Shown: positions 25,982 through 45,864 of the stretch, in pieces
Layout: each line of letters opens with the position of its first letter
Position numbering within the stretch: position 1 is the first letter of the stretch
Source of the DNA: an uncultured bacterium
GTDB taxonomy: Bacteria; Arandabacterota; Arandabacteria; Arandabacterales; Arandabacteraceae
Assembly: GCA_964598025.1 (NCBI GenBank)
Contig: CAZRAU010000004.1
Span: forward strand, 10,006-74,005
Direction: 5' to 3'
DNA: 64,000 nucleotides
The notes under the pieces: generated by a model
Databases searched by the model: none
Seen by the model: the letters and a program-made list of their open reading frames with translations, nothing else
Told to the model about the DNA's origin: nothing
Made by a program: the position numbers and the translations under genes

Positions 25982-27118
25982 CTAAAGCACCATCTTGCCT
26001 TTATCCATTACCAGCGTGGGTTTTCCCCCGGCGCCCCTTATTTCGACCGTCGGGTTTCTTATCAGGCCGTCCAGGTGTATGAGGGCCTTGGCGTCCTCGT
26101 CGTAGTTGGACCCGATAGCTATGTGGCAAGTCCTGAATACCTTCTCATCCTCGAGCATGTTGCCCACGATCCGGGCTTTCTCATTGAGCCCGATCCCGAG
26201 CTCCCCGAGGTTCCGGACGTTTTCCAGATAACCCGGAAGGTCCCGCTTGGCCACCTTGCCTTCGGCGGCGAACTTGCGTGTCGATTTCCGTGCCCTTTCG
26301 AGCGTGGCCTTCAGCTGCCGGGCTTCACTCCCACCCAGGATCTCCGTCACAAGATTGCGCCTGACCTTGATCCTTATGGGCTCCTTAATCAGTATGACTC
26401 CCTTGTCCGACGAGATACAGCCGTCATAAACCAGCGTACCTTCACCGCTTCCCAGCTCCGGTGAGATGTACATCTCGCCGGCCGGCAAGTTGCCGCCGGT
26501 CCCGGGCTTGGAGAAATTGCCGTCATCGGTGAAGGCCTTCCGTCCCCGGAGACCGATCACGAGATCGGTTCCCAGATCCGAGGTGATCCGTGCCGTGCGT
26601 GCCTTGTCAAATGCCTTCTTGAGCTTGGCCGAGACCTTGCGGAGCGCCCCGTAATCGACCGGCACGGTCCTCTGAAACATGTTCACCGTGACCGAGGGAG
26701 ACCAGAAGGACCTGGTCTTCTTGCTTCCCAACAGGTAGTGGAAGATATGATCATAGGTCTTCTTGCCGTACCGGTACTTCTTCTCCATGCCGAAACGATC
26801 CTTACCGAGCTTCGCATGACTCACGGAAACAGCGATCTCAGGCTCGGCTCTGAGGGCATGGATAACCGAGTCATTCGCAAAATCAAGCTGAGACTTCACC
26901 GGCTGGAAGAGAAGCGTGGGCAGAGCCCCGGCTTCCACAGCGGCGTCGTAAAGGGCTTCCGATATGAGCCGTACTTCAGGATTGGGGTTCGTGATAATAA
27001 GAAAGCGCTCACCTCTTCTAGCCTTCAGGACCTCGCCCACGGCGACTCGCGCGGCATTGGTAAGCCTGGGTGAGATCCGTTCGATATCACTGAATCTCAC
27101 TGGGTTCCTGCTTGCCAT
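25982..27118 (-). CDS. Aminopeptidase, peptidase family M29 (AmpS/PepS-like)
   Basis: GGNLPAGEMYISP and CHIAIGSNYDE...IHLDGLI match the M29 thermophilic metalloprotease pattern. Confidence 0.65.
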   Translation of the reverse strand: MASRNPVRFSDIERISPRLTNAARVAVGEVLKARRGERFLIITNPNPEVRLISEALYDAAVEAGALPTLLFQPVKSQLDFANDSVIHALRAEPEIAVSVSHAKLGKDRFGMEKKYRYGKKTYDHIFHYLLGSKKTRSFWSPSVTVNMFQRTVPVDYGALRKVSAKLKKAFDKARTARITSDLGTDLVIGLRGRKAFTDDGNFSKPGTGGNLPAGEMYISPELGSGEGTLVYDGCISSDKGVILIKEPIRIKVRRNLVTEILGGSEARQLKATLERARKSTRKFAAEGKVAKRDLPGYLENVRNLGELGIGLNEKARIVGNMLEDEKVFRTCHIAIGSNYDEDAKALIHLDGLIRNPTVEIRGAGGKPTLVMDKGKMVL

Positions 27119-27293
27119 CGAAGACCCTCCTTCCCGCTTGGGGTGTCACCTTGTTTCAGGTGTCCGTCGAGAAACCACTCCATTCTATTTAATACTTCCC
27201 GAACCGCTAGTCCAGAGCTGGTGGAATCTCCCGCGTTGCTCTATGGCCTCAAGGCTTTTGACATTGGGCGGCGGCTTTGCTAATTTCTCTTTG

Positions 27294-29495
27294 ATGGGTA
27301 AGTGGATAGGCATAGTCGCGCTTGCGCTGGCAGTGATCGTGGTCGTGCTCGTCCTTGGGCGAGGACCGGCGCGATATAACGTACTCCTGATCAGCATCGA
27401 CACGCTCAGACCCGACCACCTGGGATGCTACGGCTACGAGCACATAAGAACCCCCAATATCGACGGGCTGGCCGAGGAGGGGTTCCTGTTTCTCGATGTT
27501 TCCGCCACTGTTCCCCTCACCCTGCCGTCGCATACGTCGCTGCTGACCGGGCTCCTGCCCATTACAAGCGGAGTGCGCGACAACGGTGCGTTCGTGCTCT
27601 CCGATCAATTCACGACCCTGGCGGAAGTGCTTTCCGAGCAGGAATACTCCACCGGGGCTTTTGTGGCGACATTCGTGCTGGACTCCCGTTTCGGTCTGGA
27701 TCAGGGTTTTGAGGTTTACAACGACGACATGGGGTCCCAGGATAAGAAGAGCGCCTTTCAGTGGCCGGAGCGACGGGCGGATGCCGTGAACGACACGGCA
27801 CTCAACTGGTTCGCGGGGGTTCAGGAACCTTTCTTTGCCTTCGTGCATTATTATGACCCCCACGATCCCTACTCGCCCCCCCAGCCCTTTGCCGACGCCT
27901 ACACCGGGAACCTCTATGACGGCGAGATTGCATACACCGACTCCATGCTGGGTGAACTCCTGAAGGCTCTCAAAGCGAATGACCTCTATGACAACACGCT
28001 TATAGTGCTGGTTTCGGACCACGGCGAGGGCCTTGACGAGCACAATGAGGCGGGGCATGGTGTCCTTGTTTACCAGAGTACGATCAAGGTGGTCCTCATG
28101 GTCAAGCTGCCGAAAGCCTACGCTCTGGGCGGCGACCTGAAGCCGCCAGCCAAGATAGACTACCCCGTGCAGCTCATAGACGTATTCCCGACAGTGCTCG
28201 AACTCGTGGATGTCAGGCCGGATCACAATGTCGACGGTGTGAGCCTGGTTCCGGTGCTCAGAGGGGATCGGATAGACCCGAGGATGCTCTATTTCGAAAG
28301 CATGTATCCCTACTTCTACTTCAGGTGGAGTCCGTTGAGAGGTGTGCGCCACAACAACTGGAAGTACATCCTCGCTCCCGAAGAGGAGCTTTACGACATC
28401 GCCCAGGACCCCGGAGAGCTCAATAATCTAGCATCCGCCCAGCCTGAACGGGTCGGCGAGATGAGAGCCAATCTGATGGTGATGGCCGCACGGGAGACCG
28501 AGGCGCTTGAGTCAGCGCGGACCTCAATGTCCCAGGAGGATGTGCACAAGCTCATGGCTCTGGGGTACCTGGCCGGGGGGCGTCCCAATCTGCCTGAGCA
28601 CATCGAACCCGCGGGGCGGGACCCGAAGTACATGATCGGAGATCTCAATACGTATCTGTGGAGCGGGCGGAAGGCTTTCGACAACGGCGATTTCGACAGG
28701 GCCGCGGGTCTATTCGGGCAAATGGTACTGCTCGATCCGGGCAACCCGCAGGCCCATGTCCATCTGGCCAAAGCCCTGCTGGAAATGGGAGAAACCGACA
28801 TAGCCCAGGCCCAGTTCAGGAAGGCGATCGAGATAGATTCCACTCACAGCAGTGCTTTCTTCCCCATGGCCAACATCATGCGACAGCAAGGCAATCTGGA
28901 CAGGGCGCTCTTCTATCTCCGGCTGGGATCAAGCCTATCAGTGGAAACCCCCGATGTTCTCTCCAGCATGGGGGCCATCTTTGTCGAAAAGGGAGAACCC
29001 GACAGCGCCATCCAGGTATTGGAAAAGGCACTTGAACTGGACCCCAAAGACCCCATGGCCCTCCAGAACATGGGCCAGGCTTACATTTACAAGAACGAGC
29101 CGGAGAAGGCCATGCGGTGGTTCCGCGCGACGCTCGAGGTCCAGCCGCAGAATGTGAAGGCGTTGGGAAGCATCGCGCGGGTATTCATCGAGCGAGGGCA
29201 GCCCGACAGCACGATCTATTACTTCGAGCGCGCACGCGAGGCCGGTGCGGCCGATGCCACGATCCTGGCCAATTTGGGGAGTGCCTATCGCCAGAAGGGC
29301 ATGGCCGCCGAGGCCGGGGAAGCCTTCGAGTCGGCACTTCAGTATGAGCCCGACAATACAATGGCCCTGTTCGGACTCGCAGCGGTCCGGGCCCAGGAGG
29401 GCAAGACCGAGGAGTCGATAGCTCTTCTCGAACGGATTCTAGAGATCGATCCGGATTTCCAGCCTGCGTTACGGGCCCTCCAGGCCCTCAGATAG
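27294..29495 (+). CDS. Membrane-anchored sulfatase-fold protein (paralog 3, Thr at the formylglycine position) fused to a C-terminal TPR-repeat domain
   Basis: TM helix, then LLISIDTLRPDHLGCYGY and an L-T-L-P-S-H motif. The DHGEGLDEH motif is present. The C-terminal half of about 300 aa is TPR repeats (AHVHLAKALLEMGE..., ALQNMGQAYIY...). Confidence 0.75.
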   Translation: MGKWIGIVALALAVIVVVLVLGRGPARYNVLLISIDTLRPDHLGCYGYEHIRTPNIDGLAEEGFLFLDVSATVPLTLPSHTSLLTGLLPITSGVRDNGAFVLSDQFTTLAEVLSEQEYSTGAFVATFVLDSRFGLDQGFEVYNDDMGSQDKKSAFQWPERRADAVNDTALNWFAGVQEPFFAFVHYYDPHDPYSPPQPFADAYTGNLYDGEIAYTDSMLGELLKALKANDLYDNTLIVLVSDHGEGLDEHNEAGHGVLVYQSTIKVVLMVKLPKAYALGGDLKPPAKIDYPVQLIDVFPTVLELVDVRPDHNVDGVSLVPVLRGDRIDPRMLYFESMYPYFYFRWSPLRGVRHNNWKYILAPEEELYDIAQDPGELNNLASAQPERVGEMRANLMVMAARETEALESARTSMSQEDVHKLMALGYLAGGRPNLPEHIEPAGRDPKYMIGDLNTYLWSGRKAFDNGDFDRAAGLFGQMVLLDPGNPQAHVHLAKALLEMGETDIAQAQFRKAIEIDSTHSSAFFPMANIMRQQGNLDRALFYLRLGSSLSVETPDVLSSMGAIFVEKGEPDSAIQVLEKALELDPKDPMALQNMGQAYIYKNEPEKAMRWFRATLEVQPQNVKALGSIARVFIERGQPDSTIYYFERAREAGAADATILANLGSAYRQKGMAAEAGEAFESALQYEPDNTMALFGLAAVRAQEGKTEESIALLERILEIDPDFQPALRALQALR

Positions 29496-32444: not shown

Positions 32445-34259
32445 ATGGGGTCGGGACCACAAGAGAGACAGCAAGAACCAGTAATGACCAGGGCCACAGT
32501 AGAATCGAACATCAAGGACCGGGCCGCAGTCTCGTCCTCCAGGCAAGAGCTCATAGAGATCCAGAAGACCATCGTGGAGGACCTCAGGCGCGAGATTCGG
32601 GCCTCCGTCGGGGGGCAGACCAAGGAATACCAGACATACCTGCAGGAATACAATCGGCAGTTCAGGCATTACGAAAGGCGCTCGAGCATGGAGGAGATGC
32701 TCGACAGCCTTAGACGCGCCGACATTATCTATAATGGTGATTACCACACCATGGCCCAGGCCCAGCGGATCCCGCTCAGAATTCTTCGGCGCCTGGTACA
32801 TCTCCGTCCCAGGATAACCCTTGCCGTCGAGGTTGTTCGCATAGATCATCAGCATCACCTCGACCGATATCTGGCCGGGGACATCTCGGAGGCCGAGTAC
32901 CTTAAGGCGGTAAACTACGATACGACCTGGGGGTTCCCCTGGGCGCAGTACCGGGAGCTGCTTCTCTTCGCCGGGAGGCACAAGATCAGAGTCCTGGGGA
33001 TCAACAGCCAACCCAAGGGAGGCAGGTGGACACTCAAGAAGCGCGACCGGGCCGCCGCCCGGGTGATCGCGAAGGAACTGCTGGAGAGACCGGAGAGACT
33101 TGTCTACGTCTTCGACGGGGATCTCCATGTCGCCCCACCACACCTGCCTCGAGCGGTTGATGCCCTTCTATCGGAATTCAACGAGAGTCTGAGAAGTGTC
33201 GTCATCTACCAGAACAACGAGAGCATATACTGGGAGCTCGCCAGGCACCGCCTCGAGCAGGAGACCGACGTGGTGCTCATCGCCGAGGATCGTTTCTGTG
33301 TGATGAGCACCCCTCCGATAATCAAGTTTCAGTCATATCTGAACTGGATCGACAAGACCAGAGAGCTGGCATCGCCCTCACTTCGCGGCTGGCAGGGAGA
33401 CATCTTCGGGGACGAAGCCCTGTATAACCAGGTACTTCAGATGGTCCACATCATATCCCAGTTCCTCGAGATCGAGGCAGATGGTCTGGAAGACTTCATC
33501 GTCCACTCCCCGGCCGACCTGGATTTCCTCCACCACCTGAGGGCCGACAAGCGGCTCTCGCATGTGGAGGTCGACGCCATTGCCGCGCACATAAAGACAA
33601 ACGAGTCCTACTTCATCGATAAGGGCAATATCATCTATATCGCAAACCTGTCCGTCAACCATGCCGCGGAGGAGGCAACTCACTTCATCCACAGGGTCAC
33701 CGCAGGCCCCAAGAGACCCGATCTTACCCAGGTTGAAGACTTCTATTGCCGCGTGATGAGAGAGGCACTGGGGTTTTTCGGTTCAAAGATCATAAACCAC
33801 AAACGCCCATGCTACACTCTGGACGACTTCAAGTACGTCAAGCGGAAGTACCCGTCCCTGCCGCCGGACAGGATCCGAGAGCTCCGGGCGATCGGCAGAT
33901 ATGCCGCGCTGCATAAGCGCCGTGAAAGAGCATTCCTCTCAAGCGGCAAGCCATGGAGGTTGCACGGTTCCCTGTACGAGCTGCCCCTGCCTGTACACCT
34001 CGGCGTGACGCATGCCCTCGGCTACATGCTTGGAGAACGGTTGTTCGGGAGCATGCTGGAGGGTTTGATCGGAAAGACCGCCATTCGCCGGCTTTTTCAC
34101 ATGAATTTCTCCGATCTCGGCCAGGCTTACACCACCTACCTGGACTTGATATCAACGCAGCCCGGCGGCAACAGCTGCCTGAGCGCTCTGCAGGGCCGGC
34201 CTGAGCATGCGGCTTCGGCTCCTTCTCGAAACCTGCAGAAAGACACCAGTACGGTTTGA
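32445..34259 (+). CDS. ChaN/Tiki-superfamily (TraB/GumN-like) N-terminal domain plus an uncharacterised C-terminal domain of about 320 aa
   Basis: The segment IIYNGDYHTMAQAQRIPLRILRRL...AVEVV...HKIRVLGIN...LVYVFDGDLHV fits a ChaN-like domain. The start site is uncertain (M1 or M14). Confidence 0.45.
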   Translation: MGSGPQERQQEPVMTRATVESNIKDRAAVSSSRQELIEIQKTIVEDLRREIRASVGGQTKEYQTYLQEYNRQFRHYERRSSMEEMLDSLRRADIIYNGDYHTMAQAQRIPLRILRRLVHLRPRITLAVEVVRIDHQHHLDRYLAGDISEAEYLKAVNYDTTWGFPWAQYRELLLFAGRHKIRVLGINSQPKGGRWTLKKRDRAAARVIAKELLERPERLVYVFDGDLHVAPPHLPRAVDALLSEFNESLRSVVIYQNNESIYWELARHRLEQETDVVLIAEDRFCVMSTPPIIKFQSYLNWIDKTRELASPSLRGWQGDIFGDEALYNQVLQMVHIISQFLEIEADGLEDFIVHSPADLDFLHHLRADKRLSHVEVDAIAAHIKTNESYFIDKGNIIYIANLSVNHAAEEATHFIHRVTAGPKRPDLTQVEDFYCRVMREALGFFGSKIINHKRPCYTLDDFKYVKRKYPSLPPDRIRELRAIGRYAALHKRRERAFLSSGKPWRLHGSLYELPLPVHLGVTHALGYMLGERLFGSMLEGLIGKTAIRRLFHMNFSDLGQAYTTYLDLISTQPGGNSCLSALQGRPEHAASAPSRNLQKDTSTV

Positions 34260-34336: not shown

Positions 34337-35467
34337 TTGGAACTGATAGAGAAGATACTGATCATTGATGATGACCAGGCCCTTCAGGAATCCTGCAGGC
34401 AGGTCTTCGCGGGGAATAACTACAAGGTTGAGTCGGCTCTCGACGGTATCTCGGGGCTTGCAATGCACCGAGACATCCAGCCGGACCTCGTTCTTGTCGA
34501 TCTCTGCATGCCCGGCATCGGCGGCCTTGAGGTCCTCGAGAAACTCAAGTCGCATGATCCCGACTACGTAGCCATTGTGATCACAGGCTATGGGACCATA
34601 ACATCGGCTGTGGAAGCCATGAAGCGCGGGGCATACGACTTTCTCCCCAAGCCATTCACCCCGAACCAACTGAGATTCATAGTGCAAAGAGGCCTGGAAC
34701 GGCGAAGCTACATCAAGGAAACGGCCCGTCTCAGGCGTGAGAAGCAGCTGATGAGGGACAACTTCGTCTCGATGGTGTCTCACGAACTCCGCGCGCCGCT
34801 TGCAGCCGTCCAGCAACGGCTCATGCTGGTTACCGGCGGGTATACGGGCGAGATCCCTGACGCCGTCCGAGCCTCCATCCTGGGCACACAGAAGCGAATA
34901 ACTGCACTGATATCCCTGATAGGCGACTGGCTGAACCTGTCCAGAATAGAAGCCCGCGAGACTGTGAAGCCCGAGGACCCGGTTGATGTGAAAAGCATCG
35001 TCGCCGGGATCGCGGAGACGCTCGGCCCGCTGGCCACGGAGAGGAACATCACTCTGGAGATCAGTGCACCGGATTCCTTACGGCCGGTCCTCGGCAACCG
35101 CGATACGCTCGAGATGCTCTTCAGCAATCTGATAGACAATGGGATCAAGTACACCCATGATGGAGGGAGAGTCTCGATAAGGTCGGCGGAGGAAAACGGG
35201 AGCATCGTAGTCACGGTCGAAGACAACGGTGTGGGCATACCTCGAGACCAGCTTCCGCTCATCTTCGAGCAGTTCTACCGGGTGAAGGGCGAGAGACCGA
35301 CGGAAGGCAGCGGCCTCGGGTTGTCCATAGCCAGAAAGATCGCGGAGTTACACTCCGGGTCGATAACGGTGGAATCCGAAGTCGGGAAGGGGACGGTTTT
35401 CACCGTTCGCCTACCCGCATGCGAGCTGGAGCGAGAGGCGCCACAGAAGCGAGGCAGACAAACATGA
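34337..35467 (+). CDS. Hybrid sensor kinase with no sensor domain: N-terminal receiver (REC) + HisKA + HATPase_c
   Basis: TTG start. REC domain (IIDDD, LVLVDLCMPG, KPF). H-box SHELRAPL, N-box NLIDNGIKYT, G-boxes DNGVGI and GSGLGLSIA. Confidence 0.8.
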   Translation: MELIEKILIIDDDQALQESCRQVFAGNNYKVESALDGISGLAMHRDIQPDLVLVDLCMPGIGGLEVLEKLKSHDPDYVAIVITGYGTITSAVEAMKRGAYDFLPKPFTPNQLRFIVQRGLERRSYIKETARLRREKQLMRDNFVSMVSHELRAPLAAVQQRLMLVTGGYTGEIPDAVRASILGTQKRITALISLIGDWLNLSRIEARETVKPEDPVDVKSIVAGIAETLGPLATERNITLEISAPDSLRPVLGNRDTLEMLFSNLIDNGIKYTHDGGRVSIRSAEENGSIVVTVEDNGVGIPRDQLPLIFEQFYRVKGERPTEGSGLGLSIARKIAELHSGSITVESEVGKGTVFTVRLPACELEREAPQKRGRQT

Positions 35468-37083
35468 GGGTGTTGGTTCTGAATTGCGGCAGCTCCTCCG
35501 TCAAGTTCCGGCTGTTTCGGATGGAGGATGAGCAATTGCTGGCCAGCGGAATCGCCGAGCGCATAGGCTCGCCGGAAGCAGCGCTTGTATACCGGGTCCC
35601 GGGACGGGACGGCCACAGGCAGAAGGTCCGGGCCGACGACCATAAACAGGCAATCAACCTGGTTCTCGATCAGCTGAGTGATCCGGATCATGGGGTGGTC
35701 AAGGACATTCACGAGATCGACGCAATCGGGCACCGCGTTGTCCACGGGGGTGAGACCTTCACCGAGCCGGTACTCATAAACGAGGCCGTGCTTTCGAAGA
35801 TAAAGGAGTGCCGGCGCTTCGCGCCTTTGCACAACCCGCCCAACATAAGCGGGATCGAAGCTTCACTGTTTCTCATTCCTTTTGCCAGGCAGGTGGCCGT
35901 TTTTGACACTGCCTTCCACCAGTCGATGAAGCCCGAGGCGTTCGTCTACGCCCTGCCATATGAATGGTACGACAAGCGGCGGATCCGTCGCTATGGTTTC
36001 CACGGCACCTCTCACCACTATGTCTCGCTCAAAGCCGCACAAGTGCTGGGGAAACCCATTGAGGACCTCAGGATCATAACCTGTCATCTGGGCAACGGGG
36101 CCAGCGTGTGCGCGGTCAAGGGGGGCAAGTCGGTCGACACGAGCATGGGTTTCACACCGGTTGAAGGCTTGGTGATGGGGACCCGCTGCGGCGACGTCGA
36201 TGTCTCCGTGCCCCTTCACGTCATGGAGGAGGACGGGCTGGCGCCTGCCCAGATAGATGACATTCTCAACAAGAGGAGCGGACTCTTCGGTATTACCGGC
36301 GGAGACAACGATCTTCGTACGATCGAGGACAAGGCCGCCTCGGGAAGCCACCGCCACCGGCTGGCCCTGGCGATATTCACCCGGAAAGTCAAGAAGTACA
36401 TAGGGGCCTACGCTGCAATACTCGGAGGCATCGACTGTCTGGTCTTCACCGCAGGCATAGGTGAGAACTCACCTACGGTCCGGCGCATGGTCTGCGAGGG
36501 CCTCGAATTCCTCGGTATTAGGATCGACGAGGCTGCCAACGGCGAGAGCCGTGAGCAGATAGGACGGGGTGAAGCCGCGGTCCTGGTTATTCCCACCGAT
36601 GAAGAGCTGGCAATCGCCGAGGAAGTGGCATCCGTTCTGGGTGAAGAGGGCAAGACCGATGAGCCCGTCGAGACACCCGCCGCCGACATCCGCACGAAGA
36701 GAATCCTTGCCATCGACGACGATCCCGACATCCATGAATATCTGGCTGCCGTTCTCGGGCAGGCCGGTTACGCCTGTTTTCATGCCAACACGATGAGGCA
36801 GGGCATCAAGATGGTCTCCGAGGTCCGACCCGATCTCATAATCCTCGATGTGATGATGGAAGACATATCCGCGGGGTTTCGCTTCGCCAAAGAGGTCCGA
36901 TCCGCCGAGGCCGGCGGCACGGCGAAGCCCGTTCCTATCCTCATGGTCAGCGGAGTGGAGCAGGTCACCGATCTGACCTTCCACGACCGCGTCGGGACCG
37001 GCACCATGCCGGTGGATGGCTTCCTCGAAAAACCGGTGGAGCCTGACGTTCTGCTGAAAAAGGTAAGCGAAATGATCGGGTAG
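35464..37083 (+). CDS. ackA: Acetate kinase fused to a C-terminal response-regulator receiver domain
   Basis: MRVLVLNCGSSSVKF, HRVVHGG, HNPPN, VFDTAFHQS, YGFHGTSH, CHLGNGAS, DTSMGFTP and AGIGENS form the complete AckA motif set. A linker follows, then a REC domain (AIDDDPD, LIILDVMM, MVSG, FLEKP). The start overlaps the previous stop (ATGA). Confidence 0.8.
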   Translation: MRVLVLNCGSSSVKFRLFRMEDEQLLASGIAERIGSPEAALVYRVPGRDGHRQKVRADDHKQAINLVLDQLSDPDHGVVKDIHEIDAIGHRVVHGGETFTEPVLINEAVLSKIKECRRFAPLHNPPNISGIEASLFLIPFARQVAVFDTAFHQSMKPEAFVYALPYEWYDKRRIRRYGFHGTSHHYVSLKAAQVLGKPIEDLRIITCHLGNGASVCAVKGGKSVDTSMGFTPVEGLVMGTRCGDVDVSVPLHVMEEDGLAPAQIDDILNKRSGLFGITGGDNDLRTIEDKAASGSHRHRLALAIFTRKVKKYIGAYAAILGGIDCLVFTAGIGENSPTVRRMVCEGLEFLGIRIDEAANGESREQIGRGEAAVLVIPTDEELAIAEEVASVLGEEGKTDEPVETPAADIRTKRILAIDDDPDIHEYLAAVLGQAGYACFHANTMRQGIKMVSEVRPDLIILDVMMEDISAGFRFAKEVRSAEAGGTAKPVPILMVSGVEQVTDLTFHDRVGTGTMPVDGFLEKPVEPDVLLKKVSEMIG

Positions 37084-37087
37084 AAGG

Positions 37088-37137
37088 CCGGGGTCAGATC
37101 TTGAAAGTTGAATTCAATTCTCAATATCCGACCCCGG
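37088..37137. promoter_or_regulatory. Palindromic element: inverted repeat CCGGGGTCAGAT / ATCCGACCCCGG around AGTTGAATTCAATTC. Paralog of the 12563..12605 motif
   Basis: Seen directly. It starts 4 nt after the AckA-REC stop. 36 of 40 nt are shared with the motif at 12572..12605. Confidence 0.4.
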
Positions 37138-37549
37138 CTATGTCAGGTGATGCCGCACCCGGTCAGACACGTTGTCGACGATCCAAGCAGGTCGCCGACG
37201 GATCCCAAGTCCAGGCCAGCGACATCACCATTAACGGCACAGTTGCCGATGCCTGCTCTCGCCGTGCCGGCAGCGAGCGCGCCCTCTCGCGGGCGCACCG
37301 CCATCCACATATCAATACAGAGAAAAGGGGGATCTCGCCGTAGTCACGCTCATTGTGCCCAGCCTCCGTCCGGGGGAAGCCGGATGCCGCATAACAACCT
37401 TTGCCGATACACAGGCCGGTTTCCGGCTTCCGATTGGACTATAGCCACGAACGGCAAACCTGCCAAGGGGCTGAAGACATACAAAGGACTACAATCGAGA
37501 GACTGCGCGTGGTAGGATAGGTCCAATCACAAGATATGGAGGGGAGATC

Positions 37550-38133: not shown

Positions 38134-39930
38134 TCACTGGATGTAACCTAGCGCTCGCAGGTCTTTCCTGGTATCTTCTTCCAGCACCGAAGGCACCTCC
38201 GCTCCATACTCATTCTCGCAGTGCCAGATCAGACAGTATGGTGGGGCCGGCCTCGAGGCCGGCCCCGCAGACGAGCCGGCTTTCACGCGTCGAGCAGTCC
38301 TTGCGAACGGCATTTCCAGAGGATGCTTAAGCGACTCGCCGAGATAGGTCCTATCCGGTACGGGTTTGCCGTCCATGCTCACATGAAAAGTGACAGGGAC
38401 CCCCACCGGTATCTCGGCCTTGAAAGCCAGCACAACAGGCTTCGCAGTCCTCAGGCCGCGTATCTCGAGTGCAGAATGCTGTTCCGTTATCGAAGCGACG
38501 TCATGCGATTCCACGATACGCTGCCGGTCATCGAGGAGCTTGTACATATAGATCTTGCCTATCCCACAACGCCGGCGGACAACGGCGCTGAGATCGAAGG
38601 TATGCGACGTTTCCCCGCCTGCCATCTCGACATACCATGTCTCAGACATTGCGAACATGCTCTTGAACAACATGGATTCGAGCAGGGCTTGAGAATCCTG
38701 ATTCTCACCGGCAAGATTGTTCATTTCGCCGGGATCCTGCTCAAGGTTCAGGAGAAGCTCCTTCTCATCGGCTACATCATATATGATTTTCCACTGATGA
38801 GTGGTCAGCGACTTCCTCTCACCGCCCCGTCGTAATCCCTCAGAGTATGCAACTTCAGGCGGGAACATGCCGCCCCCAACCGCAGCGCCCGGCCCCTCCC
38901 CCGTGAGCCACGGCAACAGGCTCCTACCTTCAAATCTGCCGTCGACGTCGACATCCAGAAGATCGAGAATCGTGGGCATTACGTCCACAAGACGTGCTTG
39001 CCCGGACGGGCGCGCACCCTCGGGGAGCACACCCGGGAGAGAGAAGATAAGCGGGACCTTGATGACCTCTTTGAAGAGGGTATGGCCATGGCCGTATCCC
39101 TTGTGTTCGAAGAACTCTTCCCCGTGATCACTCAGGAACACAATCAGGGTCTTATCCTTCAGACCAAGTTCCTCGAGGCCTTGAAGCAGATCGCCGATTG
39201 CCTCATCGGTAAATGCTATTTCACCATCGTACAGGGCCCTTATGTGGTCCCAGTCGGCGGCCGTCTGCTCACCCTCGTTCCTGAAAAGATCTTCTTTCAT
39301 CTCGAGGTACTTGTCACGGTCAAAGGACCTTCCAATCCTCCCCTCATAGTCAGGATCGAAGATCGTATCGTACGGCGCCGGGGGTGAATACGCAAGATGG
39401 GGATCGAAGTAGTGAACAAACATGAAGAAGGGTTCACGCTTATGGAGAACGATCCACTCGAGGGCATCCCTTGTCACTTCGCCGGCAATCCTCTTCACTG
39501 CCGGTGGAGGGGCATCGTAGTGGTCGAACCCCCGGTCCACACCGAATTCGGGGCTCAGAACCGACACGTTGACTATGCCGCATGTCAGGTATCCATTATC
39601 CGAGAGTATATCGGCAAGTGTCGGGAATGTGCTTCGGAGCCGGTTCATATTGATGCCGGCGCCGTGCTGTGTCGGATAGAGTGATGTCAGCACACTCGCA
39701 AATGATGGAAGAGTCCACGGGCACTGGCTGATGGTGTTCTCAAGCAAGACCCCCTGGCCGGCAAGCCGGTCGATGTTGGGGCTTGTGTTTCGCATGTAGC
39801 CGTAACATCCGAGATGATCCGGCCTCAGCGTATCCACGCCGATAAGCAATACGTTGGTTGGCCCGTTATCCCGGCCGCATGCGAGAACAAGCAGACATGC
39901 GGCCATGAGGCACCGGTTGACCGCTTTCAT
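38134..39930 (-). CDS. Membrane-anchored sulfatase-fold protein, paralog 4 (Thr at the formylglycine position) with a C-terminal extension of about 200 aa
   Basis: TM/lipobox, then LLIGVDTLRPDHLGCYGY and a W-T-L-P-S-F motif. The DHGEEFFEH motif is present. Confidence 0.75.
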   Translation of the reverse strand: MKAVNRCLMAACLLVLACGRDNGPTNVLLIGVDTLRPDHLGCYGYMRNTSPNIDRLAGQGVLLENTISQCPWTLPSFASVLTSLYPTQHGAGINMNRLRSTFPTLADILSDNGYLTCGIVNVSVLSPEFGVDRGFDHYDAPPPAVKRIAGEVTRDALEWIVLHKREPFFMFVHYFDPHLAYSPPAPYDTIFDPDYEGRIGRSFDRDKYLEMKEDLFRNEGEQTAADWDHIRALYDGEIAFTDEAIGDLLQGLEELGLKDKTLIVFLSDHGEEFFEHKGYGHGHTLFKEVIKVPLIFSLPGVLPEGARPSGQARLVDVMPTILDLLDVDVDGRFEGRSLLPWLTGEGPGAAVGGGMFPPEVAYSEGLRRGGERKSLTTHQWKIIYDVADEKELLLNLEQDPGEMNNLAGENQDSQALLESMLFKSMFAMSETWYVEMAGGETSHTFDLSAVVRRRCGIGKIYMYKLLDDRQRIVESHDVASITEQHSALEIRGLRTAKPVVLAFKAEIPVGVPVTFHVSMDGKPVPDRTYLGESLKHPLEMPFARTARRVKAGSSAGPASRPAPPYCLIWHCENEYGAEVPSVLEEDTRKDLRALGYIQ

Positions 39931-40034
39931 TGCGTGCCCCTTCTGCAGTGCAGTCCGCCGCCATACATCGTGCTGTTCCGGGTGCCTGGAAATACCAGGT
40001 AAACAGATTCCGGATCTCCACCCAAGGCTAAGTC

Positions 40035-40346
40035 TTGGCATTTGTCCTGTCAACCGCGAACCGGTTCCTGCGTGACCATGGCGAGGGTTTCGACGATCAT
40101 GGCGGCTTCGGACACGGCCACAGCCTTTACGATGAGCTGACTACGGCTCCTCTGATGCTCTCACTTCCCGGAGTGCTTCCGCTGAATGCGAGACCGGCAC
40201 GACAGGTGCGGCGCATCGAGGTGGCTCCGGAGAAGGCGGATGGTCTTGACCCGCCTGAGCAGATGCTGTTCACGACCCTCTTCGGAACATCTCAAACCTG
40301 GTATGTGAGACCGGCCTTTGCGCCGAACCGCACAGGTCCGGGCTGA
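40035..40346 (+). pseudogene. Inverted, internally deleted fragment of a sulfatase-fold gene (partial duplicate of paralog 4)
   Basis: DHGEGFDDHGGFGHGHSLYDELTTAPLMLSLPGVLPLNARPARQ aligns to DHGEEFFEHKGYGHGHTLFKEVIKVPLIFSLPGVLPEGARPSGQ of the neighbouring gene. The tail EQMLFTTLFGTSQTWYV aligns to ESMLFKSMFAMSETWYV. The N-terminal catalytic half is missing. Confidence 0.5.
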
Positions 40347-40404: not shown

Positions 40405-43203
40405 TTATCTGATCAGAACGATCTTGCTGGTCCGGGTCCCCCCGGCCGAGGCCAGTCTGCAGAAATAGACACCCGGCGGGCTCCGGCGTCCGATCAGATC
40501 TCTTCCATTCCAGGTAGCGCTGTGCCGGCCGGGGGTTCCGGCATCATCCACGAGTGTCGCCACCTTCCTTCCCAAGGGTGAGAACACCTCCAGCGTGACG
40601 GGTCCCGCCCGGGCGATGGTATATGGAATCGTGGTGCCGGTGGAGAAAGGATTAGGCCGGTTCAGACCCAGCTCTACCTGCCGTGCCCCACCATCGTCCC
40701 GGCCGTTGCCCACCGGCCGCCAACCGCCGACCTCGAGGCTTGATGCCCGGTGAGGAGCGTGTTCCATCTTGATCAACAGAAGGTGTGCAGCCTCGTCATA
40801 GAAGTAACCCTCTCCCCCGGCCATGAGGGCGCTCTCCGTGGGGCTCGCAAGCAGGGTGAGAGAGTCCCGGCGGACCCAGCCGGGAGGGCACCCCGCGAGA
40901 TGGACCATGGTGAGAATCGTCCTGGCTTCGGGGATGCCGGAGAAGCCGCCTTCGGCGCCGCCGATATCCAGATAGAGTGTTGTATCGGTATTGCCGTAGA
41001 GCACTTCCTGGGCGAACAAGGTTGTGGCATACTTCCCCGTTTCATAATCACGGCTGAGGCCGTCATCTTCATAAAGCCTGAAGGTCTCCCGCCGGCTGTC
41101 GTCCGGTGGATAGACATGCAGAATCAGCGTATCCAGGGGCGTCTCGTCGACATAGTCCATCACCGGTTGCATCGGCAGTAGCGCGCCGGCGCGAACGAAC
41201 ACCGGAATACGGTCGAGTGGTGCGTCCGCCATTATGCTCTCAGGGCCCGCGTAAAGACTGTCCGTCCAGAAATCCACCCAGTGCCCTCGAGGCAGATAGA
41301 CCTCCCTGGCCGTAATCCCCGCCTCGATTACAGGGGCCACCAGGATGTCGGGCCCAAACAGGAAGGCATCGGAAAGGTCTGCGAGACTTGGGTCGTCAGG
41401 ATCGTGAAAGAAGAGCGGACGAGCAATCGGCATGCCGGTCGTGTGATTCTCCCAGGCGAGCGAGTAGATGTAGGGCATCAGCCTGTAGCGAAGCCGTATG
41501 AATTCGACGGCTATCTCCTCGGCTTCTATCCCATGCGCCCAGGGTTCCGTCCCCTGATTGTCACCACCGTGGGCCCGCATCACCGGGTTGAAGGCCCCGA
41601 ATTGCATCCAGCGGGCATAGAGTTCGGGAGACGTCCATCCGGTGAACCCGCCGAGATCGGAGCTGTGGTAGCTTAATCCGGACAGTGACATATTGAGCAT
41701 TATCGGGACCTGGACGGCAAGCCCCCCGAAACTCCGGGATACATCTCCCGACCAGGTGAAGACCCCATAGCGTTGTATTCCGGCGTAACCCGACCTTGTG
41801 AGATTGAAAACGCGCTCGCCGGGCCGGTCGGCTGAGAAGCCATCGAATATGGTTTTCGCCCACAATAGGTTATACACATTGTGGACCTCTTCGGCGCTGC
41901 CGGCATAATGGTCCATGTCCCAGGGGTGGCGCTCCGGCTCGCCGAGATCGGTCCAGAAACCCGCGACCCCACCGCTGAGAAGTCCCTTATCGCGATCCCA
42001 GAGCCATATGCGGGCATCCGGATTGGTGACATCTAGAAGCACCGCGTCGCAGCCACACGACCACCAGCCGTCGAGTATATATGCTTCATCCAGCCAGTTC
42101 CGGCCGACAAGGTCTCTGTGCCCCGTGGTGAGATCGTGGTAGTACCTCGAATACTCATTGAAATAAGGCTGGTTGATAAGAACGGTCTTGAAACCGAGGT
42201 CGAGGAAGTCCGCGACCATACCCGGTGGATTGGGAAAGGCCTGGACGTCCCATGCAAGATCCCCCATGTTTTCGAACCAGTAGAGGTCGAGGACAACGGC
42301 ATCGGCGGGAATCCCCCGGGCCCGCATCGTCCTTACCATGGTCTCGGCTTCCCCACGGGTCCTGTATCCGTATTTCGATTGAAGATACCCTAACGCCCAC
42401 TTCGGCGGCATGGGCTGTCTGCCTGTGAGCCACGTGTACCTCTCCAGTTGGCCTGGAACCGTCGGGGCGGCAAGCAGGAAGTAGGAAAGCCCGTTTGCAC
42501 TCTGCTCGTAGAAGAACAGCCCGTTATCCGTCCGGCCCAGATCAAAGCCGCCGGGCAGGGACGTGTCGAAATAGAGGGCATACCCTCGTGAAGTCGCCAG
42601 AAACGGCACGTTTATTTTCATGGTTTCCACCGGACCACCGTACCCATAGACCTGAGTGTTATACATCCAGAAGCTGTGGCCCCTCAGATCGATTCCGATG
42701 CCTCGCTCACCGGTCCCATACAGATGAAGGTCGTACGGAAGCACAAAGCGCGCTCTGGACAGGCCGCCCAGACCCTCCAGACCCCCGCCGTCGGGCTCGG
42801 CCAGGAGTTCCCAACCCACAGCATCGAAATAGGAAACGCGGAGAGGACGCTTGTCCATATGGATGACGATCTCAGAAGTCAGCACTTCAAGTGCGGTATC
42901 GGTGTCGCGGACTTCGAACTCAACGCCGGGATCAGGGTGCCTGACGACGACAAACCCCGTATCGGGCGCCGGTGACCCGAGCGGCATGAAATCGAGCCTC
43001 ACGACATCCGGGGCATAGAAGGTCAACAGCACGGTGTCGCCTCCCGCCACAACCCTGACCCCCGCCGGCATGACCTCGTGCCCTGAGTAGTCGCCGACCT
43101 GACCGAGGCATGCGGCGGATACCGATATGCAGATGATGAATACGGCAGCCGCCAGAAGAGCGGCCTCTGAACGCCTCGCGTCACCATGTATCCGATTCGC
43201 CAT
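40405..43203 (-). CDS. Glycoside hydrolase family 31 (alpha-glucosidase/xylosidase-like) with a T9SS C-terminal sorting domain
   Basis: Signal peptide. The GH31 catalytic region AGFWTDLGEP aligns to WxDMNE. The C-terminus PVTLEVFSPLGRKVATL...ATWNGRDLIGRRSPPGVYFCRL...KIVLIR is a Por_Secre_tail. Confidence 0.8.
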   Translation of the reverse strand: MANRIHGDARRSEAALLAAAVFIICISVSAACLGQVGDYSGHEVMPAGVRVVAGGDTVLLTFYAPDVVRLDFMPLGSPAPDTGFVVVRHPDPGVEFEVRDTDTALEVLTSEIVIHMDKRPLRVSYFDAVGWELLAEPDGGGLEGLGGLSRARFVLPYDLHLYGTGERGIGIDLRGHSFWMYNTQVYGYGGPVETMKINVPFLATSRGYALYFDTSLPGGFDLGRTDNGLFFYEQSANGLSYFLLAAPTVPGQLERYTWLTGRQPMPPKWALGYLQSKYGYRTRGEAETMVRTMRARGIPADAVVLDLYWFENMGDLAWDVQAFPNPPGMVADFLDLGFKTVLINQPYFNEYSRYYHDLTTGHRDLVGRNWLDEAYILDGWWSCGCDAVLLDVTNPDARIWLWDRDKGLLSGGVAGFWTDLGEPERHPWDMDHYAGSAEEVHNVYNLLWAKTIFDGFSADRPGERVFNLTRSGYAGIQRYGVFTWSGDVSRSFGGLAVQVPIMLNMSLSGLSYHSSDLGGFTGWTSPELYARWMQFGAFNPVMRAHGGDNQGTEPWAHGIEAEEIAVEFIRLRYRLMPYIYSLAWENHTTGMPIARPLFFHDPDDPSLADLSDAFLFGPDILVAPVIEAGITAREVYLPRGHWVDFWTDSLYAGPESIMADAPLDRIPVFVRAGALLPMQPVMDYVDETPLDTLILHVYPPDDSRRETFRLYEDDGLSRDYETGKYATTLFAQEVLYGNTDTTLYLDIGGAEGGFSGIPEARTILTMVHLAGCPPGWVRRDSLTLLASPTESALMAGGEGYFYDEAAHLLLIKMEHAPHRASSLEVGGWRPVGNGRDDGGARQVELGLNRPNPFSTGTTIPYTIARAGPVTLEVFSPLGRKVATLVDDAGTPGRHSATWNGRDLIGRRSPPGVYFCRLASAGGTRTSKIVLIR

Positions 43204-43303
43204 CGCCCTCATCCATCCGCATTCCAGCCTGAATGCAGCCAAGCCATCCTCTCATTTAAGATAACATATGGCGGCCTGGGCTTAAAGCGGTGAACCCTAC
43301 GCT

Positions 43304-44502: not shown

Positions 44503-45864
44503 CTAACCGGTTTCCCCCAGTAACCGCTCGAGCTCCTCCGGAGGTATGCCCAGTTCTTCTGCGGCAACGTCTCTGCGGTGGTCGAAGTGCTCGATAGTCT
44601 TCAGCACGTGCTCTCTGATGACTTCACTAAGCTTGCGGGGCGTGAACCCCAACTCAACCGGGGCCTCTTCCCGCCGTATGATTTCCTGAATGTGAAGCGG
44701 CAGGGCTTCAGCGGTGACCGTATCACCCTCCGTGTTCGCGACGGCTCCGGCGATTATAGCTCTGAGCTCCTGCACGTTGGTCGGGAAGCTGTAACCCTTC
44801 AGAGAATCTATGAAGTCGTCCGAGAAGCCCCGGACCTCCCTTCCCACCCGCCGGCTCTCTTCCTTGATAAGCGCGTCCGCGAGCAGCGGGAGATCTCCCC
44901 CCCTGTCCCTCAGAGGCGGCATCCTTATGGAATTCACCATCAGGTGATAGAGAAGATCCCGGGAGAACTTGTCCTTGTACTCCAGGCTAGTCAGATCATG
45001 AGTGGAGGCCACAACCATCCTGACATCGGCCTTTCTGATCTGTGTGGAGTTCTCTCTGTAGTATTCCCCGGTCTCCAAGAACCGCTTGAGGCGCACCTGC
45101 ATGGGTTTCGAGAGGCAATCGATATGATTGAGAAACAACGTCCCATAGTTGGCCTCCTCCAGAAGACCCGGTTGCTCTTCCCTCGATCCGCTCCACGTCT
45201 TGTCCTGTCCGAAGAGAAAGGCCGGAAGACTCTCCGGGTCCTGGCTGTCCACTTCCGCAGCCACAAAGGGCTTGTCCAGGCGTGGGCTGGCTTGATGTAT
45301 GGCCCTGGCAAGCGCCTCCTTGCCCGTTCCACTCTCCCCCCAAATGAAGATTATTAGATCGCTCGAGGCGAGCTTTTCGGCCTGATGGAAGAGACGGATC
45401 ATACCATTGTCTTGAGTCGTGAAGTGGTCGAATGCGTCTTCGTGTTCGAGGTCCTTGCGGGTCAGCTGCTCGGGCAAGGTCTCAATCGTACGGTGCAGCA
45501 AGCTATGCTCCATCGCGTTGTTGAGAACTCCCAGGAGCCTGTCTTCGTCGGCAGGTTTTATGAGGTAGTCGAAGGCGCCCAGTTTCATGGCTTTGACCGC
45601 AAGATCCACATCACTGACGCCGGTCAATACCACCACAGGCGTATCCACTCCCTTCATCCGCAAGTCCTGCATGATATCCATCCCGCTGACATTCGGCATG
45701 TCCATGTCCAGCAAGAGAACATCGAAGGTCTCTTCCTCCATCAGGTCCGCGACATTCCGGGAGTCGTTGACAACGCTGGTTTCAAACAATCCGGTCTGCA
45801 TCAGGAAGACCATCAGGTAGTTGGTCACGGCTGGATCGTCGTCCCCGATAAGGATCTTCTTCAT
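44503..45864 (-). CDS. Sigma-54-dependent response regulator (NtrC family: REC + AAA+ sigma-54 activator + Fis-type HTH)
   Basis: REC domain (LIGDDD, DVLLLDMDMP). GESGTGKE Walker A motif, a GAFTGA-region equivalent and a C-terminal HTH. Overlaps the kinase gene by 4 nt. Confidence 0.85.
   Translation of the reverse strand: MKKILIGDDDPAVTNYLMVFLMQTGLFETSVVNDSRNVADLMEEETFDVLLLDMDMPNVSGMDIMQDLRMKGVDTPVVVLTGVSDVDLAVKAMKLGAFDYLIKPADEDRLLGVLNNAMEHSLLHRTIETLPEQLTRKDLEHEDAFDHFTTQDNGMIRLFHQAEKLASSDLIIFIWGESGTGKEALARAIHQASPRLDKPFVAAEVDSQDPESLPAFLFGQDKTWSGSREEQPGLLEEANYGTLFLNHIDCLSKPMQVRLKRFLETGEYYRENSTQIRKADVRMVVASTHDLTSLEYKDKFSRDLLYHLMVNSIRMPPLRDRGGDLPLLADALIKEESRRVGREVRGFSDDFIDSLKGYSFPTNVQELRAIIAGAVANTEGDTVTAEALPLHIQEIIRREEAPVELGFTPRKLSEVIREHVLKTIEHFDHRRDVAAEELGIPPEELERLLGETG

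What the first reader, a model, noticed from the sequence alone, without database searches (positions are those of the whole stretch)
34337..37083. Acetate kinase fused to a receiver domain, translationally coupled to a sensor-less REC-histidine kinase
A full-length AckA with every catalytic motif intact carries a C-terminal CheY-like receiver domain with intact D-D-D-S/T-K residues. Its start codon overlaps (ATGA) the stop of a hybrid REC-HisKA-HATPase kinase that has no sensor domain. Acetyl phosphate, the product of AckA, is a known small-molecule phosphodonor for receiver domains. This fusion would either put acetyl-P synthesis under phosphorelay control or make a self-priming acetyl-P/REC signalling node. 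I do not recognise this architecture as a described system. Butyrate kinase, KorAB and a bifurcating NfnABC-like complex in the same window place it in a fermentative acyl-phosphate setting.
Basis: partly seen in the sequence, partly recalled or inferred. Interest (0 to 1): 0.75.

Follow-up and report, generated by a model that had tools for sequence, protein, structure and literature searches.

The report
Acetate kinase fused to a phospho-receiver
An uncultured anaerobic bacterium has welded a two-component "receiver" switch onto acetate kinase and encodes its partner histidine kinase just upstream. This suggests that the enzyme handling acetyl phosphate is itself controlled by phosphorylation signalling, an arrangement I could not find described anywhere.

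Summary
Window 35464-37083(+) encodes a 539-aa protein with a complete acetate kinase domain (Pfam 9e-148) and a C-terminal receiver domain (REC, 2.7e-16). All AckA catalytic residues and the receiver D-D-D-S/T-K set are present. Its ATG overlaps (ATGA) the stop of a 376-aa REC-HisKA-HATPase kinase.

It is not an artefact. Twenty protein clusters from independent metagenomes (63-100% identity) share the fusion and form one clade. Both domains are under purifying selection; the 22-residue linker is not.

New context: the closest unfused relatives (7 loci) carry a conserved operon, [PAS or Cache sensor kinase] - REC-HK - ackA - single REC - REC-REC - malic enzyme or oxaloacetate decarboxylase. 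The fusion therefore arose by joining adjacent ackA and REC genes. The same kinase cassette flanks hydrogenase or formate-dehydrogenase-like genes in other phyla.

The fusion is very rare: one 50%-identity cluster among 1.84 billion representatives. Seven literature searches found no description.

Best reading: a response regulator whose output domain is acetate kinase, phosphorylated by the co-transcribed kinase. Self-phosphorylation by acetyl phosphate is a live rival. REC fusions to metabolic enzymes are a known class, so this is a new variant of a known kind. The mechanism is inferred, not shown.

The parts
34337..35467 (+). REC-HisKA-HATPase histidine kinase gene (376 aa, TTG start); no sensor domain other than its N-terminal receiver
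   Evidence: ORF; Pfam. Orthologues at 50-74% identity lie next to ackA in 8 other loci.
34355..34678 (+). Receiver (input) domain of the kinase, NtrC-type; phospho-acceptor D55 (34499-34501)
   Evidence: Pfam Response_reg 7e-27. D11, D12, D55, T83 and K105 are invariant in A2. It is 47-49% identical to the REC of the NtrC-like regulators in L089/L090.
34754..35419 (+). HisKA dimerisation/phospho-acceptor domain (H149 at 34781-34783) and HATPase_c catalytic domain
   Evidence: Pfam HisKA 6.4e-07 and HATPase_c 1.9e-31. The H, N, G1, F and G2 boxes are invariant. The H-box reads HELR(A/S)PL.
35464..35467 (+). ATGA overlap: the kinase stop (TGA) overlaps the AckA-REC start (ATG)
   Evidence: Sequence. 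The same 4-nt overlap is seen in L006, L008 and L089; L091 overlaps by one base.
35464..37083 (+). AckA-REC fusion gene (539 aa)
   Evidence: Twenty fused homologue clusters, P0001-P0020.
35470..36621 (+). Acetate kinase domain, catalytic residues intact
   Evidence: Pfam 9e-148; TIGR00016 502 bits. phmmer E = 4.8e-139 (467 bits) to T. maritima AckA 2iir. Invariant residues.
36634..36699 (+). Variable acidic/Pro/Thr-rich linker (res 391-412)
   Evidence: Mean pairwise identity 0.30, against 0.75 for AckA and 0.65 for REC; dN/dS about 0.5-1.5. AF2 pLDDT below 50 at residues 396-407.
36703..37065 (+). C-terminal receiver domain; phospho-acceptor D462 (36847-36849); signature LDVMMEDISAGFRF
   Evidence: Pfam 2.7e-16. 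D418, D419, D462, S/T496 and K523 are conserved. It is orthologous to the free 130-140-aa REC that follows ackA in L009, L010, L089, L090 and L091.
37086..37229 (+). Conserved structured 3' region: a long hairpin (37086-37139, terminator-like) plus a second stem (37146-37229)
   Evidence: About 90% identical to L092 just after the stop codon. RNA fold z = -5.95. No Rfam hit. Whether it belongs to the module is tentative.

Best explanation
The two genes form a minimal two-component module whose output is an enzyme. AckA-REC is a response regulator with acetate kinase as its effector domain. The co-translated REC-HisKA-HATPase kinase autophosphorylates on H149 and transfers the phosphoryl group to D462 of the tethered receiver. 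The phosphorylated receiver, attached by a flexible linker of about 22 residues to the last helix of AckA, then changes AckA activity. This puts the acetyl-P + ADP <-> acetate + ATP step under post-translational signalling control. The kinase itself is gated through its own N-terminal, NtrC-type receiver (D55) by an upstream phosphodonor, either a sensor kinase as in sister operons or possibly acetyl-P.

Shown: the domain architecture, intact catalytic and phospho-acceptor residues, purifying selection on both domains, a single origin by fusion of adjacent ackA and REC genes, and conserved linkage to the orthologous kinase.

Inferred: phosphotransfer from the kinase to D462, and any effect on AckA activity, including its sign.
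For: 1. Domains and residues are intact.
2. Twenty fused clusters form one clade nested within unfused AckAs.
3. Both domains are constrained: dN/dS is about 0.06-0.17 for AckA and 0.11-0.17 for REC, but about 0.5-1.5 for the linker.
4. The kinase is directly upstream in the window, L001, L006, L008 and L092, with otherwise different flanks. By matching contig lengths, kinase orthologues share contigs with 8 fused clusters.
5. Seven unfused sister loci keep REC-HK - ackA - REC - REC-REC. In L091 and L089 the ackA stop overlaps the REC start. The free REC carries the same MMEDISAGFRF signature at 45-55% identity.
6. In Actinobacteria and Planctomycetota the orthologous kinase (about 50% identity) is flanked by a related single-domain REC with no ackA: after the kinase in L173, before it in L172. 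This supports REC as the kinase's partner.
7. Apart from AckA, the 2-gene module has no DNA-binding or other output domain.
8. REC fusions that place metabolic enzymes under signalling control are a recognised class (PMC5847659).
Against: - No biochemical data exist.
- Two basal fused loci (L004/P0020 and L005/P0019) have no kinase next to the gene.
- The REC is C-terminal, whereas most characterised enzymatic response regulators have it at the N-terminus.
- The long unconstrained linker and modest AF2 confidence (pTM 0.60) give no evidence for a fixed REC-AckA interface.
- The sister operons contain up to five receivers, so who phosphorylates whom is not determined.
- dS is saturated (above 1), so the dN/dS values are rough.
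Confidence: 0.55

Rival explanations
1. Self-priming acetyl-P sensor, with AckA as the input rather than the output. Acetyl phosphate bound or made in the AckA active site phosphorylates the tethered receiver directly. REC~P then either feeds back on AckA (acetyl-P homeostasis) or passes phosphate back to the kinase's His149 and its N-terminal receiver. AckA would then be the metabolic 'sensor domain' that the kinase lacks.
For: - Acetyl-P is an established small-molecule phosphodonor for receivers (established knowledge; Lukat et al. 1992, Wolfe 2010, cited from memory).
- The kinase has no conventional sensor.
- The receiver active site is complete, with a small T+1 residue (G/A/S497) that leaves it accessible.
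- The H-box HELR(A/S)PL lacks the T/N of the HisKA phosphatase motif. The kinase may therefore be a poor phosphatase, so REC~P formed from acetyl-P would persist.
- A direct AckA-response regulator interaction that modulates acetyl-P use has been hypothesised for S. pneumoniae CiaR (PMC4295557).
Against: - In sister operons, real sensor kinases (PAS, Cache/HAMP) sit directly upstream of the REC-HK, often overlapping it. A conventional input therefore exists.
- The same kinase-REC cassette works next to hydrogenase or FDH-like genes without any AckA.
- The kinase keeps a fully conserved ATP-binding domain.
Confidence: 0.2
2. The receiver acts as a tether or phosphate sink. It docks AckA onto the kinase complex, for example for local ATP regeneration from acetyl-P, or it drains phosphoryl groups from the relay. 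It does not change AckA catalysis.
For: - The linker is long and unconstrained, and no interface is predicted.
- Single-domain receivers commonly act as sinks or adaptors (established knowledge: CheY2, DivK, CpdR).
- The sister operons are multi-receiver.
Against: - A sink or adaptor has no need for covalent attachment to AckA.
- The fusion has been kept across a clade down to 63% identity, with strong constraint on both domains.
- ackA sits between the kinase and the REC in all 7 unfused loci, which argues for a specific functional link.
Confidence: 0.12
3. Neutral or accidental gene fusion, or a sequencing or assembly artefact: read-through of overlapping ackA and REC genes with no regulatory meaning.
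For: In the nearest unfused relatives the ackA stop overlaps the REC start (L091, L089). A single indel would fuse them.
Against: - The fused form recurs in 20 clusters from JGI, ENA, Logan and NCBI assemblies, with conserved length (539-550 aa).
- It is monophyletic.
- All receiver active-site residues are invariant, and REC dN/dS is about 0.11-0.17.
Confidence: 0.05

Closest known systems
Response regulators with enzymatic output domains (CheB REC-methylesterase, PleD/WspR REC-GGDEF, RpfG REC-HD-GYP, PorX REC-PglZ), and the rarer 'REC + standard metabolic enzyme' fusions noted by Galperin
   Same: A phosphorylatable CheY-like receiver is covalently linked to a catalytic domain, and a cognate histidine kinase is encoded alongside. 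[quoted passage not shown]
   Different: - The output here is acetate kinase, a central fermentation enzyme whose substrate/product, acetyl-P, is itself a receiver phosphodonor.
- The receiver is C-terminal, on a flexible linker.
- I found no report or family model for this combination.
Canonical acetate kinase AckA (M. thermophila 1G99, T. maritima 2IIR)
   Same: Residues 1-393 align end to end with 2iir (phmmer E = 4.8e-139, 467 bits). All catalytic residues are conserved.
   Different: The canonical enzymes are about 400 aa with no signalling domain. None of the 19 solved AckA/propionate kinase sequences covers the extra 150 residues.
Acetyl-phosphate as a global signal to two-component systems (E. 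coli Pta-AckA pathway; S. pneumoniae AckA-CiaRH)
   Same: Both link AckA and acetyl-P levels to receiver phosphorylation. Marx et al. 2015 hypothesised a direct AckA-CiaR interaction (PMC4295557).
   Different: There the link is diffusible or hypothetical and the proteins are separate. Here the enzyme and a receiver are one polypeptide, with a dedicated kinase in the same operon.
Receiver-gated histidine kinases in multi-step relays (REC-HisKA-HATPase family, 360-385 aa)
   Same: The window kinase belongs to a large family. Members at about 50% identity occur in Actinobacteria and Planctomycetota, embedded in Cache-HK/(NtrC)/REC/REC-HK/(REC) cassettes.
   Different: In those phyla the cassette precedes hydrogenase or formate-dehydrogenase-like operons. 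Only in this uncultured lineage is ackA inserted between the kinase and the REC, and only in one sub-clade is it fused.

Membership tests
Acetate/propionate kinase (Pfam PF00871, NCBIfam TIGR00016) | Profile match above the curated cutoff over the full domain | tested here: met
   PF00871 492.5 bits against a cutoff of 22, profile positions 2-392 of 392. TIGR00016 502 bits against 293.4.
Acetate/propionate kinase (Pfam PF00871, NCBIfam TIGR00016) | Catalytic residues N7, R91, H180, R241, E384 (M. thermophila numbering), plus D148, H123, H208 | tested here: met
   N7, R91, H123, D148, H180, H208, R241 and E380/E381 are present in the window and invariant in 20 homologues.
Acetate/propionate kinase (Pfam PF00871, NCBIfam TIGR00016) | Acetate (versus propionate) specificity and kinase activity | not testable with these tools
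   The equivalog models for specific acetate or propionate kinases all score below their cutoffs. Only subfamily-level assignment is possible.
CheY-like receiver domain (PF00072) | Profile match above cutoff | tested here: met
   60.1 bits against a cutoff of 30.2, residues 414-534, profile positions 1-110 of 111.
CheY-like receiver domain (PF00072) | Acidic pair, phospho-acceptor Asp, Thr/Ser, Lys | tested here: met
   D418, D419, D462 and K523 are invariant; position 496 is S or T in all 20 sequences.
CheY-like receiver domain (PF00072) | (beta-alpha)5 fold | tested here: inconclusive
   The AF2 model gives b1-a1-b2-a2-b3-a3-b4-[irregular 497-518]-b5-a5. Helix alpha4 is not predicted, but the alignment is shallow and pLDDT there is 56-75.
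Response regulator with enzymatic output | Cognate histidine kinase encoded adjacently | tested here: met
   The kinase is directly upstream in 5 of 7 fused loci with DNA (window, L001, L006, L008, L092) and in 7 of 7 unfused sister loci. It is absent next to L004 and L005.
Response regulator with enzymatic output | Phosphorylation of the receiver changes the activity of the output domain | not testable with these tools
   Requires biochemistry.
HisKA-type histidine kinase | H-box His plus N, G1, F and G2 boxes | tested here: met
   H149, N268, D296/G298/G300, F310/F313 and G324/G326/G328 are invariant in 9 orthologues.
HisKA-type histidine kinase | Phosphatase motif H-E/D-x-x-T/N | tested here: not met
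   The H-box is HELR(A/S)PL; position H+4 is Ala in the window (A153) and Ala or Ser in orthologues. The motif definition is recalled from the literature (Willett & Kirby 2012), not tested here.
His-Asp-His-Asp phosphorelay (Hpt or Spo0B-type) | An Hpt or Spo0B-like phosphotransfer protein or domain | tested here: not met
   No Hpt domain was found in either protein, or in the sister-operon proteins listed with Pfam hits.

The most novel reading that the evidence does not exclude
AckA serves as the sensory input of a two-component system. The enzyme converts the cell's acetate/ATP/acetyl-P status into phosphorylation of its own tethered receiver. That receiver then exchanges phosphate with the sensor-less kinase and the kinase's N-terminal receiver. 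This would be a covalent 'metabolic-flux sensor', with an enzyme's product acting as the phosphodonor for its own regulatory domain.
Probability: 0.2. Interest if true: 0.85.

Novelty: new variant of a known kind. Interest (0 to 1): 0.6.

Why it matters
Acetyl phosphate has long been debated as a physiological phosphodonor that couples central metabolism to two-component signalling. Evidence for a dedicated physical link between AckA and receiver proteins has so far been indirect.

Here nature provides a 'Rosetta-stone' fusion, together with a conserved kinase-ackA-receiver operon in the sister lineage. This argues that AckA and a specific receiver work together.

The fusion gives a simple two-protein system in which three things can be tested directly:
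- kinase-to-receiver transfer;
- acetyl-P autophosphorylation in cis;
- the effect of Asp phosphorylation on a substrate-level-phosphorylation enzyme.

It also shows post-translational, rather than transcriptional, two-component control of a fermentation end-step in an uncultured anaerobe.

Tried and rejected
1. **Assembly or frameshift artefact.** Rejected: 20 independent fused clusters, one clade, constrained REC.

2. **Independent AckA-REC fusions elsewhere.** I ran an exhaustive phmmer of residues 320-539 (AckA C-terminus + linker + REC) against 1.84 billion representatives. Only the P0016 cluster spans both parts. Seven long candidate hits that I checked (P0325, P0356, P0363, P0357, P0242, P0257, P0348) are hybrid kinases, PilZ or GGDEF proteins. 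A scan of 241 million metagenome records added only one more fused locus, L092. The GTDB species representatives contain only unfused versions.

3. **Related single-domain RECs in other phyla.** Those in Myxococcota, Acidobacteriota and Desulfarculaceae lie near kinases but never near ackA.

4. **The window's second kinase/NtrC pair (44503-47852).** I tested it as the missing upstream sensor. It is only 31-35% identical to the Cache-HK/NtrC or PAS-HK of sister operons, and only in generic regions. Not supported.

5. **REC-REC or MaeB orthologues in the window.** None found.

6. **AF2 model of the fusion.** Quality is mediocre (pLDDT 74.6, pTM 0.60), and the tool gives no contact or PAE output, so no REC-AckA interface could be assessed. 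I did not run fold searches, because the domain identities were already unambiguous.

7. **Promoter and terminator consensus scan.** Uninformative.

8. **Taxonomy.** NCBI labels the relatives only as 'bacterium', and a literature search for the MAG name found nothing. T9SS-type sorting domains and a C25 peptidase hint at an FCB-group lineage. This is unproven.

9. **Literature.** Seven full-text searches found no description of the fusion. The Galperin 2006 census could not be opened.
Full report
**1. The observation**

Two co-directional ORFs occupy 34337-37083 on the + strand.

The first (34337-35467, TTG start, 376 aa) has three domains:
- Response_reg, residues 7-114;
- HisKA, residues 140-206;
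- HATPase_c, residues 254-361.

Nothing else is present. An in-frame TGA at 34322 excludes a longer N-terminus.

The second ORF has its conserved ATG at 35464 (MRVLVLNCGSSS..., the N-terminus of all homologues) and ends at 37083, giving 539 aa. It contains:
- Acetate_kinase, residues 3-386 (9e-148; TIGR00016 502 bits against a cutoff of 293);
- Response_reg, residues 414-534 (2.7e-16, 60 bits against a cutoff of 30).

The junction reads AAACATGAGGG, so the ATG overlaps the kinase's TGA.

**2. It is a real, selected fusion of single origin**

A search of 5.8 billion clustered proteins returned 20 clusters with both Pfam domains. They are 539-550 aa long and 63-100% identical, and come from JGI, ENA, Logan and NCBI assemblies.

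In their alignment (A1):
- the AckA catalytic residues are invariant (N7, R91, H123, D148, H180, H208, R241, E380/381);
- the receiver residues are invariant (D418, D419, D462, K523), and position 496 is always S or T;
- residues 391-412 are a variable linker rich in acidic residues, Pro and Thr.

| Region | Mean pairwise identity | dN/dS against six homologues |
|---|---|---|
| AckA | 0.75 | about 0.06-0.17 |
| Linker | 0.30 | about 0.5-1.5 |
| REC | 0.65 | about 0.11-0.17 |

dS is saturated, so these ratios are rough.

A neighbour-joining tree of the AckA domains places all 20 fused proteins in one clade nested among about 400-aa AckAs. No bootstrap was run.

AF2 on the 20-sequence alignment gives a disordered linker (pLDDT below 50 at residues 396-407) and pTM 0.60. 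It provides no evidence for a fixed inter-domain pose. The receiver's alpha4 is not predicted as a helix, but confidence there is low.

**3. How rare it is**

I searched residues 320-539 (conserved AckA C-terminus + linker + REC) with phmmer against 1.84 billion 50%-identity representatives. Any AckA+REC protein should out-score REC-only or AckA-only proteins in this search.

- Only one representative (P0016, the same clade) spans both parts.
- Seven long candidate hits that I checked are hybrid kinases, PilZ-REC or REC-GGDEF proteins.
- A pattern scan of 241 million metagenome records added one more fused locus, L092.
- The 185,579 GTDB species representatives contain only unfused relatives.

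**4. Where it came from: the main new finding**

The closest unfused AckAs are 61-71% identical. They lie in a conserved operon seen in seven distinct loci: L009=L093, L010=L095, a JGI contig without DNA, L089, L090, L091 and L094. The gene order is:

1. a PAS sensor kinase, or a Cache_3-Cache_2/HAMP sensor kinase plus an NtrC-type regulator plus a 123-aa REC (this upstream sensor block was seen in four of the seven loci);
2. REC-HisKA-HATPase (359-379 aa);
3. ackA (400-415 aa);
4. a single-domain REC (130-142 aa);
5. a REC-REC protein (260-269 aa);
6. a MaeB-type malic enzyme with a PTA_PTB domain, or in L091 oxaloacetate decarboxylase.

Lactate/malate dehydrogenase-like genes and LarA sometimes follow.

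The free REC shares the signature LDVMMEDISAGFRF...PVDxFLEKPVEP with the fused one and is 45-55% identical. In L091 and L089 the ackA stop overlaps the REC start, so a small indel suffices to fuse them.

The REC-HK is orthologous throughout (50-74% identity), with all catalytic residues invariant.

Among fused loci, the kinase is immediately upstream in the window, L001, L006, L008 and L092, although other neighbours differ. Kinase orthologues share contig lengths with eight fused clusters; this is an inference from matching lengths. The two most basal fused members, L004 and L005, have no adjacent kinase.

The window itself has no REC-REC or MaeB gene. The clade has therefore reduced the operon to a two-gene core.

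**5. Wider cassette**

Kinases about 50% identical occur in Actinobacteria and Planctomycetota. In the two loci I examined, L172 and L173, they sit in a cassette of Cache-HK - (NtrC) - REC - REC-HK - (REC133). Next come NiFe-hydrogenase subunit genes and, in L173, a molybdopterin formate-dehydrogenase-like gene. There is no ackA.

Their single-domain RECs are 27-40% identical to the AckA-linked REC and to REC-REC. Related RECs in Myxococcota, Acidobacteriota and Desulfarculaceae lie near kinases but never near ackA.

So a pre-existing multi-receiver relay that accompanies anaerobic energy-metabolism operons captured ackA in one uncultured lineage. In one sub-clade it then fused ackA to its receiver.

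**6. Mechanism**

Established knowledge: receivers are phosphorylated on the conserved Asp by cognate kinases, and many also by acetyl-P. REC phosphorylation controls attached enzymatic domains in CheB, PleD, RpfG and PorX.

The two-gene module has no output domain other than AckA. ackA sits between the kinase and its receiver in every unfused locus, and the fusion is conserved under selection. From these three facts I infer the following:
- AckA-REC is a response regulator whose effector is acetate kinase.
- It is phosphorylated at D462 by the translationally coupled kinase.
- That kinase is in turn gated through its own NtrC-type receiver (D55).

The sign of the effect on AckA, and whether it acts on catalysis, domain closure or dimerisation, is unknown. 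Confidence in this mechanism is about 0.55. The architecture and evolutionary origin are essentially certain.

The main rival, at about 0.2, is that acetyl-P generated or bound by AckA phosphorylates the tethered receiver in cis, making AckA the sensor. Points in its favour:
- the kinase has no sensor domain;
- the H-box HELR(A/S)PL lacks the T/N of the HisKA phosphatase motif (motif recalled from the literature);
- the T+1 residue is small.

Points against it:
- bona fide sensor kinases lie upstream in sister operons;
- the same cassette operates without AckA elsewhere.

The two models are not exclusive. Sink/scaffold and neutral-fusion readings are less likely (see Rival explanations).

A contextual inference: sCache_3-type sensors include the CitA/DcuS carboxylate sensors (from my own knowledge). 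The sister operons encode malic enzyme or oxaloacetate decarboxylase. The ancestral system may therefore couple organic-acid sensing to the pyruvate-to-acetate ATP-yielding branch. This was not tested.

**7. Comparison with the known**

The protein is a member of the acetate/propionate kinase family and of the CheY-like receiver family; the defining features were tested and met. Functionally it belongs with response regulators that have enzymatic outputs.

[quoted passage not shown] The kind is therefore known.

I found nothing describing AckA as the output:
- seven full-text searches returned no description;
- no NCBIfam model is specific to it;
- JGI annotates it simply as 'acetate kinase';
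- none of the 19 solved AckA/propionate kinase sequences covers the extra region.

The closest functional precedent is the hypothesis of a direct AckA-CiaR interaction that modulates acetyl-P-dependent phosphorylation in S. pneumoniae (PMC4295557).

**8. Verdict**

The feature is real, conserved and very rare. It is a new variant of a known kind, with an unusually suggestive pairing: an enzyme whose substrate is a receiver phosphodonor, fused to a receiver.

Interest is 0.6. The case is notable and directly testable, but the general principle of REC fused to a metabolic enzyme is not new, and the mechanism remains inferred.

Noticed in passing
window 37086-37229 (+), compared with L092 2011-2170: The ~160 nt just after the AckA-REC stop are about 90% identical between the window and L092, more than the adjacent coding DNA. 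They fold into a long hairpin (a perfect 49-nt palindrome followed by T6 in L092) plus a second long stem (z = -5.95). There is no Rfam hit and the sequence is unique in the window. It could be a terminator plus a structured 3' UTR or small RNA.
   Followed up: partly
window 54205-55197 (-): A 330-aa protein combines an N-terminal receiver with an AsnC_trans_reg (Lrp/AsnC ligand-binding) domain. This is another unusual REC fusion in the same genome.
   Followed up: no
L008 5794-7930: Directly downstream of a fused AckA-REC lie an acetyl-CoA hydrolase/transferase gene and a REC-GCV_H fusion (receiver + glycine-cleavage H-protein/lipoyl-carrier fold, 261 aa). Its REC is 42% identical to the receiver of the REC-HK.
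   Followed up: partly
proteins P0063-P0117 (AckA homologues of 464-515 aa): A separate group of acetate kinases carries a conserved, roughly 60-aa, helix-rich C-terminal extension (motif ETAKLVLLWAxNPKA...GRxV..V..EL.RL.L). The three I scanned (P0063, P0065, P0080) have no Pfam match there. Two relatives carry a precomputed PF01498 (transposase HTH) label. Function unknown.
   Followed up: partly
L172 3636-11064 and L173 1671-13125: In an actinobacterial and a planctomycete MAG, the orthologous REC-HK sits in a Cache-HK/(NtrC)/REC/REC-HK/(REC) cassette. This lies immediately upstream of NiFe-hydrogenase genes, Fer4_22/FAD-NAD oxidoreductase genes and, in L173, a molybdopterin formate-dehydrogenase-like gene. 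It suggests a widespread, uncharacterised relay attached to anaerobic redox operons.
   Followed up: partly
window 32445-34259 (+); also L005 3704-4693: A 604-aa protein with a ChaN/Tiki-type Cofac_haem_bdg domain (only in residues 85-188) lies just upstream of the kinase. An ECF sigma - zf-HC2 anti-sigma - YbjQ trio recurs near fused AckA-REC genes in L001, L004 and L005, followed in L005 by a ChaN-like gene. The meaning of this synteny is unknown; the two ChaN-like proteins share only 28% identity.
   Followed up: no
window 48022-53525 (-): A 1249-aa protein fuses 2Fe-2S, GltD-like flavoprotein, NuoG/HoxU-like FeS and molybdopterin-oxidoreductase modules. It lies next to a 601-aa NuoF-like subunit with a C-terminal 2x[4Fe-4S] domain. 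This is an unusually large, possibly electron-bifurcating NAD(P)H/formate-type complex.
   Followed up: no
window-wide: Several sulfatases (12477-14402, 14424-15833, 26964-29495 with TPR repeats, 38134-40053), a GH31 glycosidase (40405-43242) and a C25 gingipain-like peptidase (8791-12402) point to a polysaccharide- and protein-degrading fermenter. FlgD_ig/Por_Secre_tail sorting domains in related contigs add to this picture, which may indicate an FCB-group lineage. No tRNA or Rfam family was found in 64 kb.
   Followed up: no
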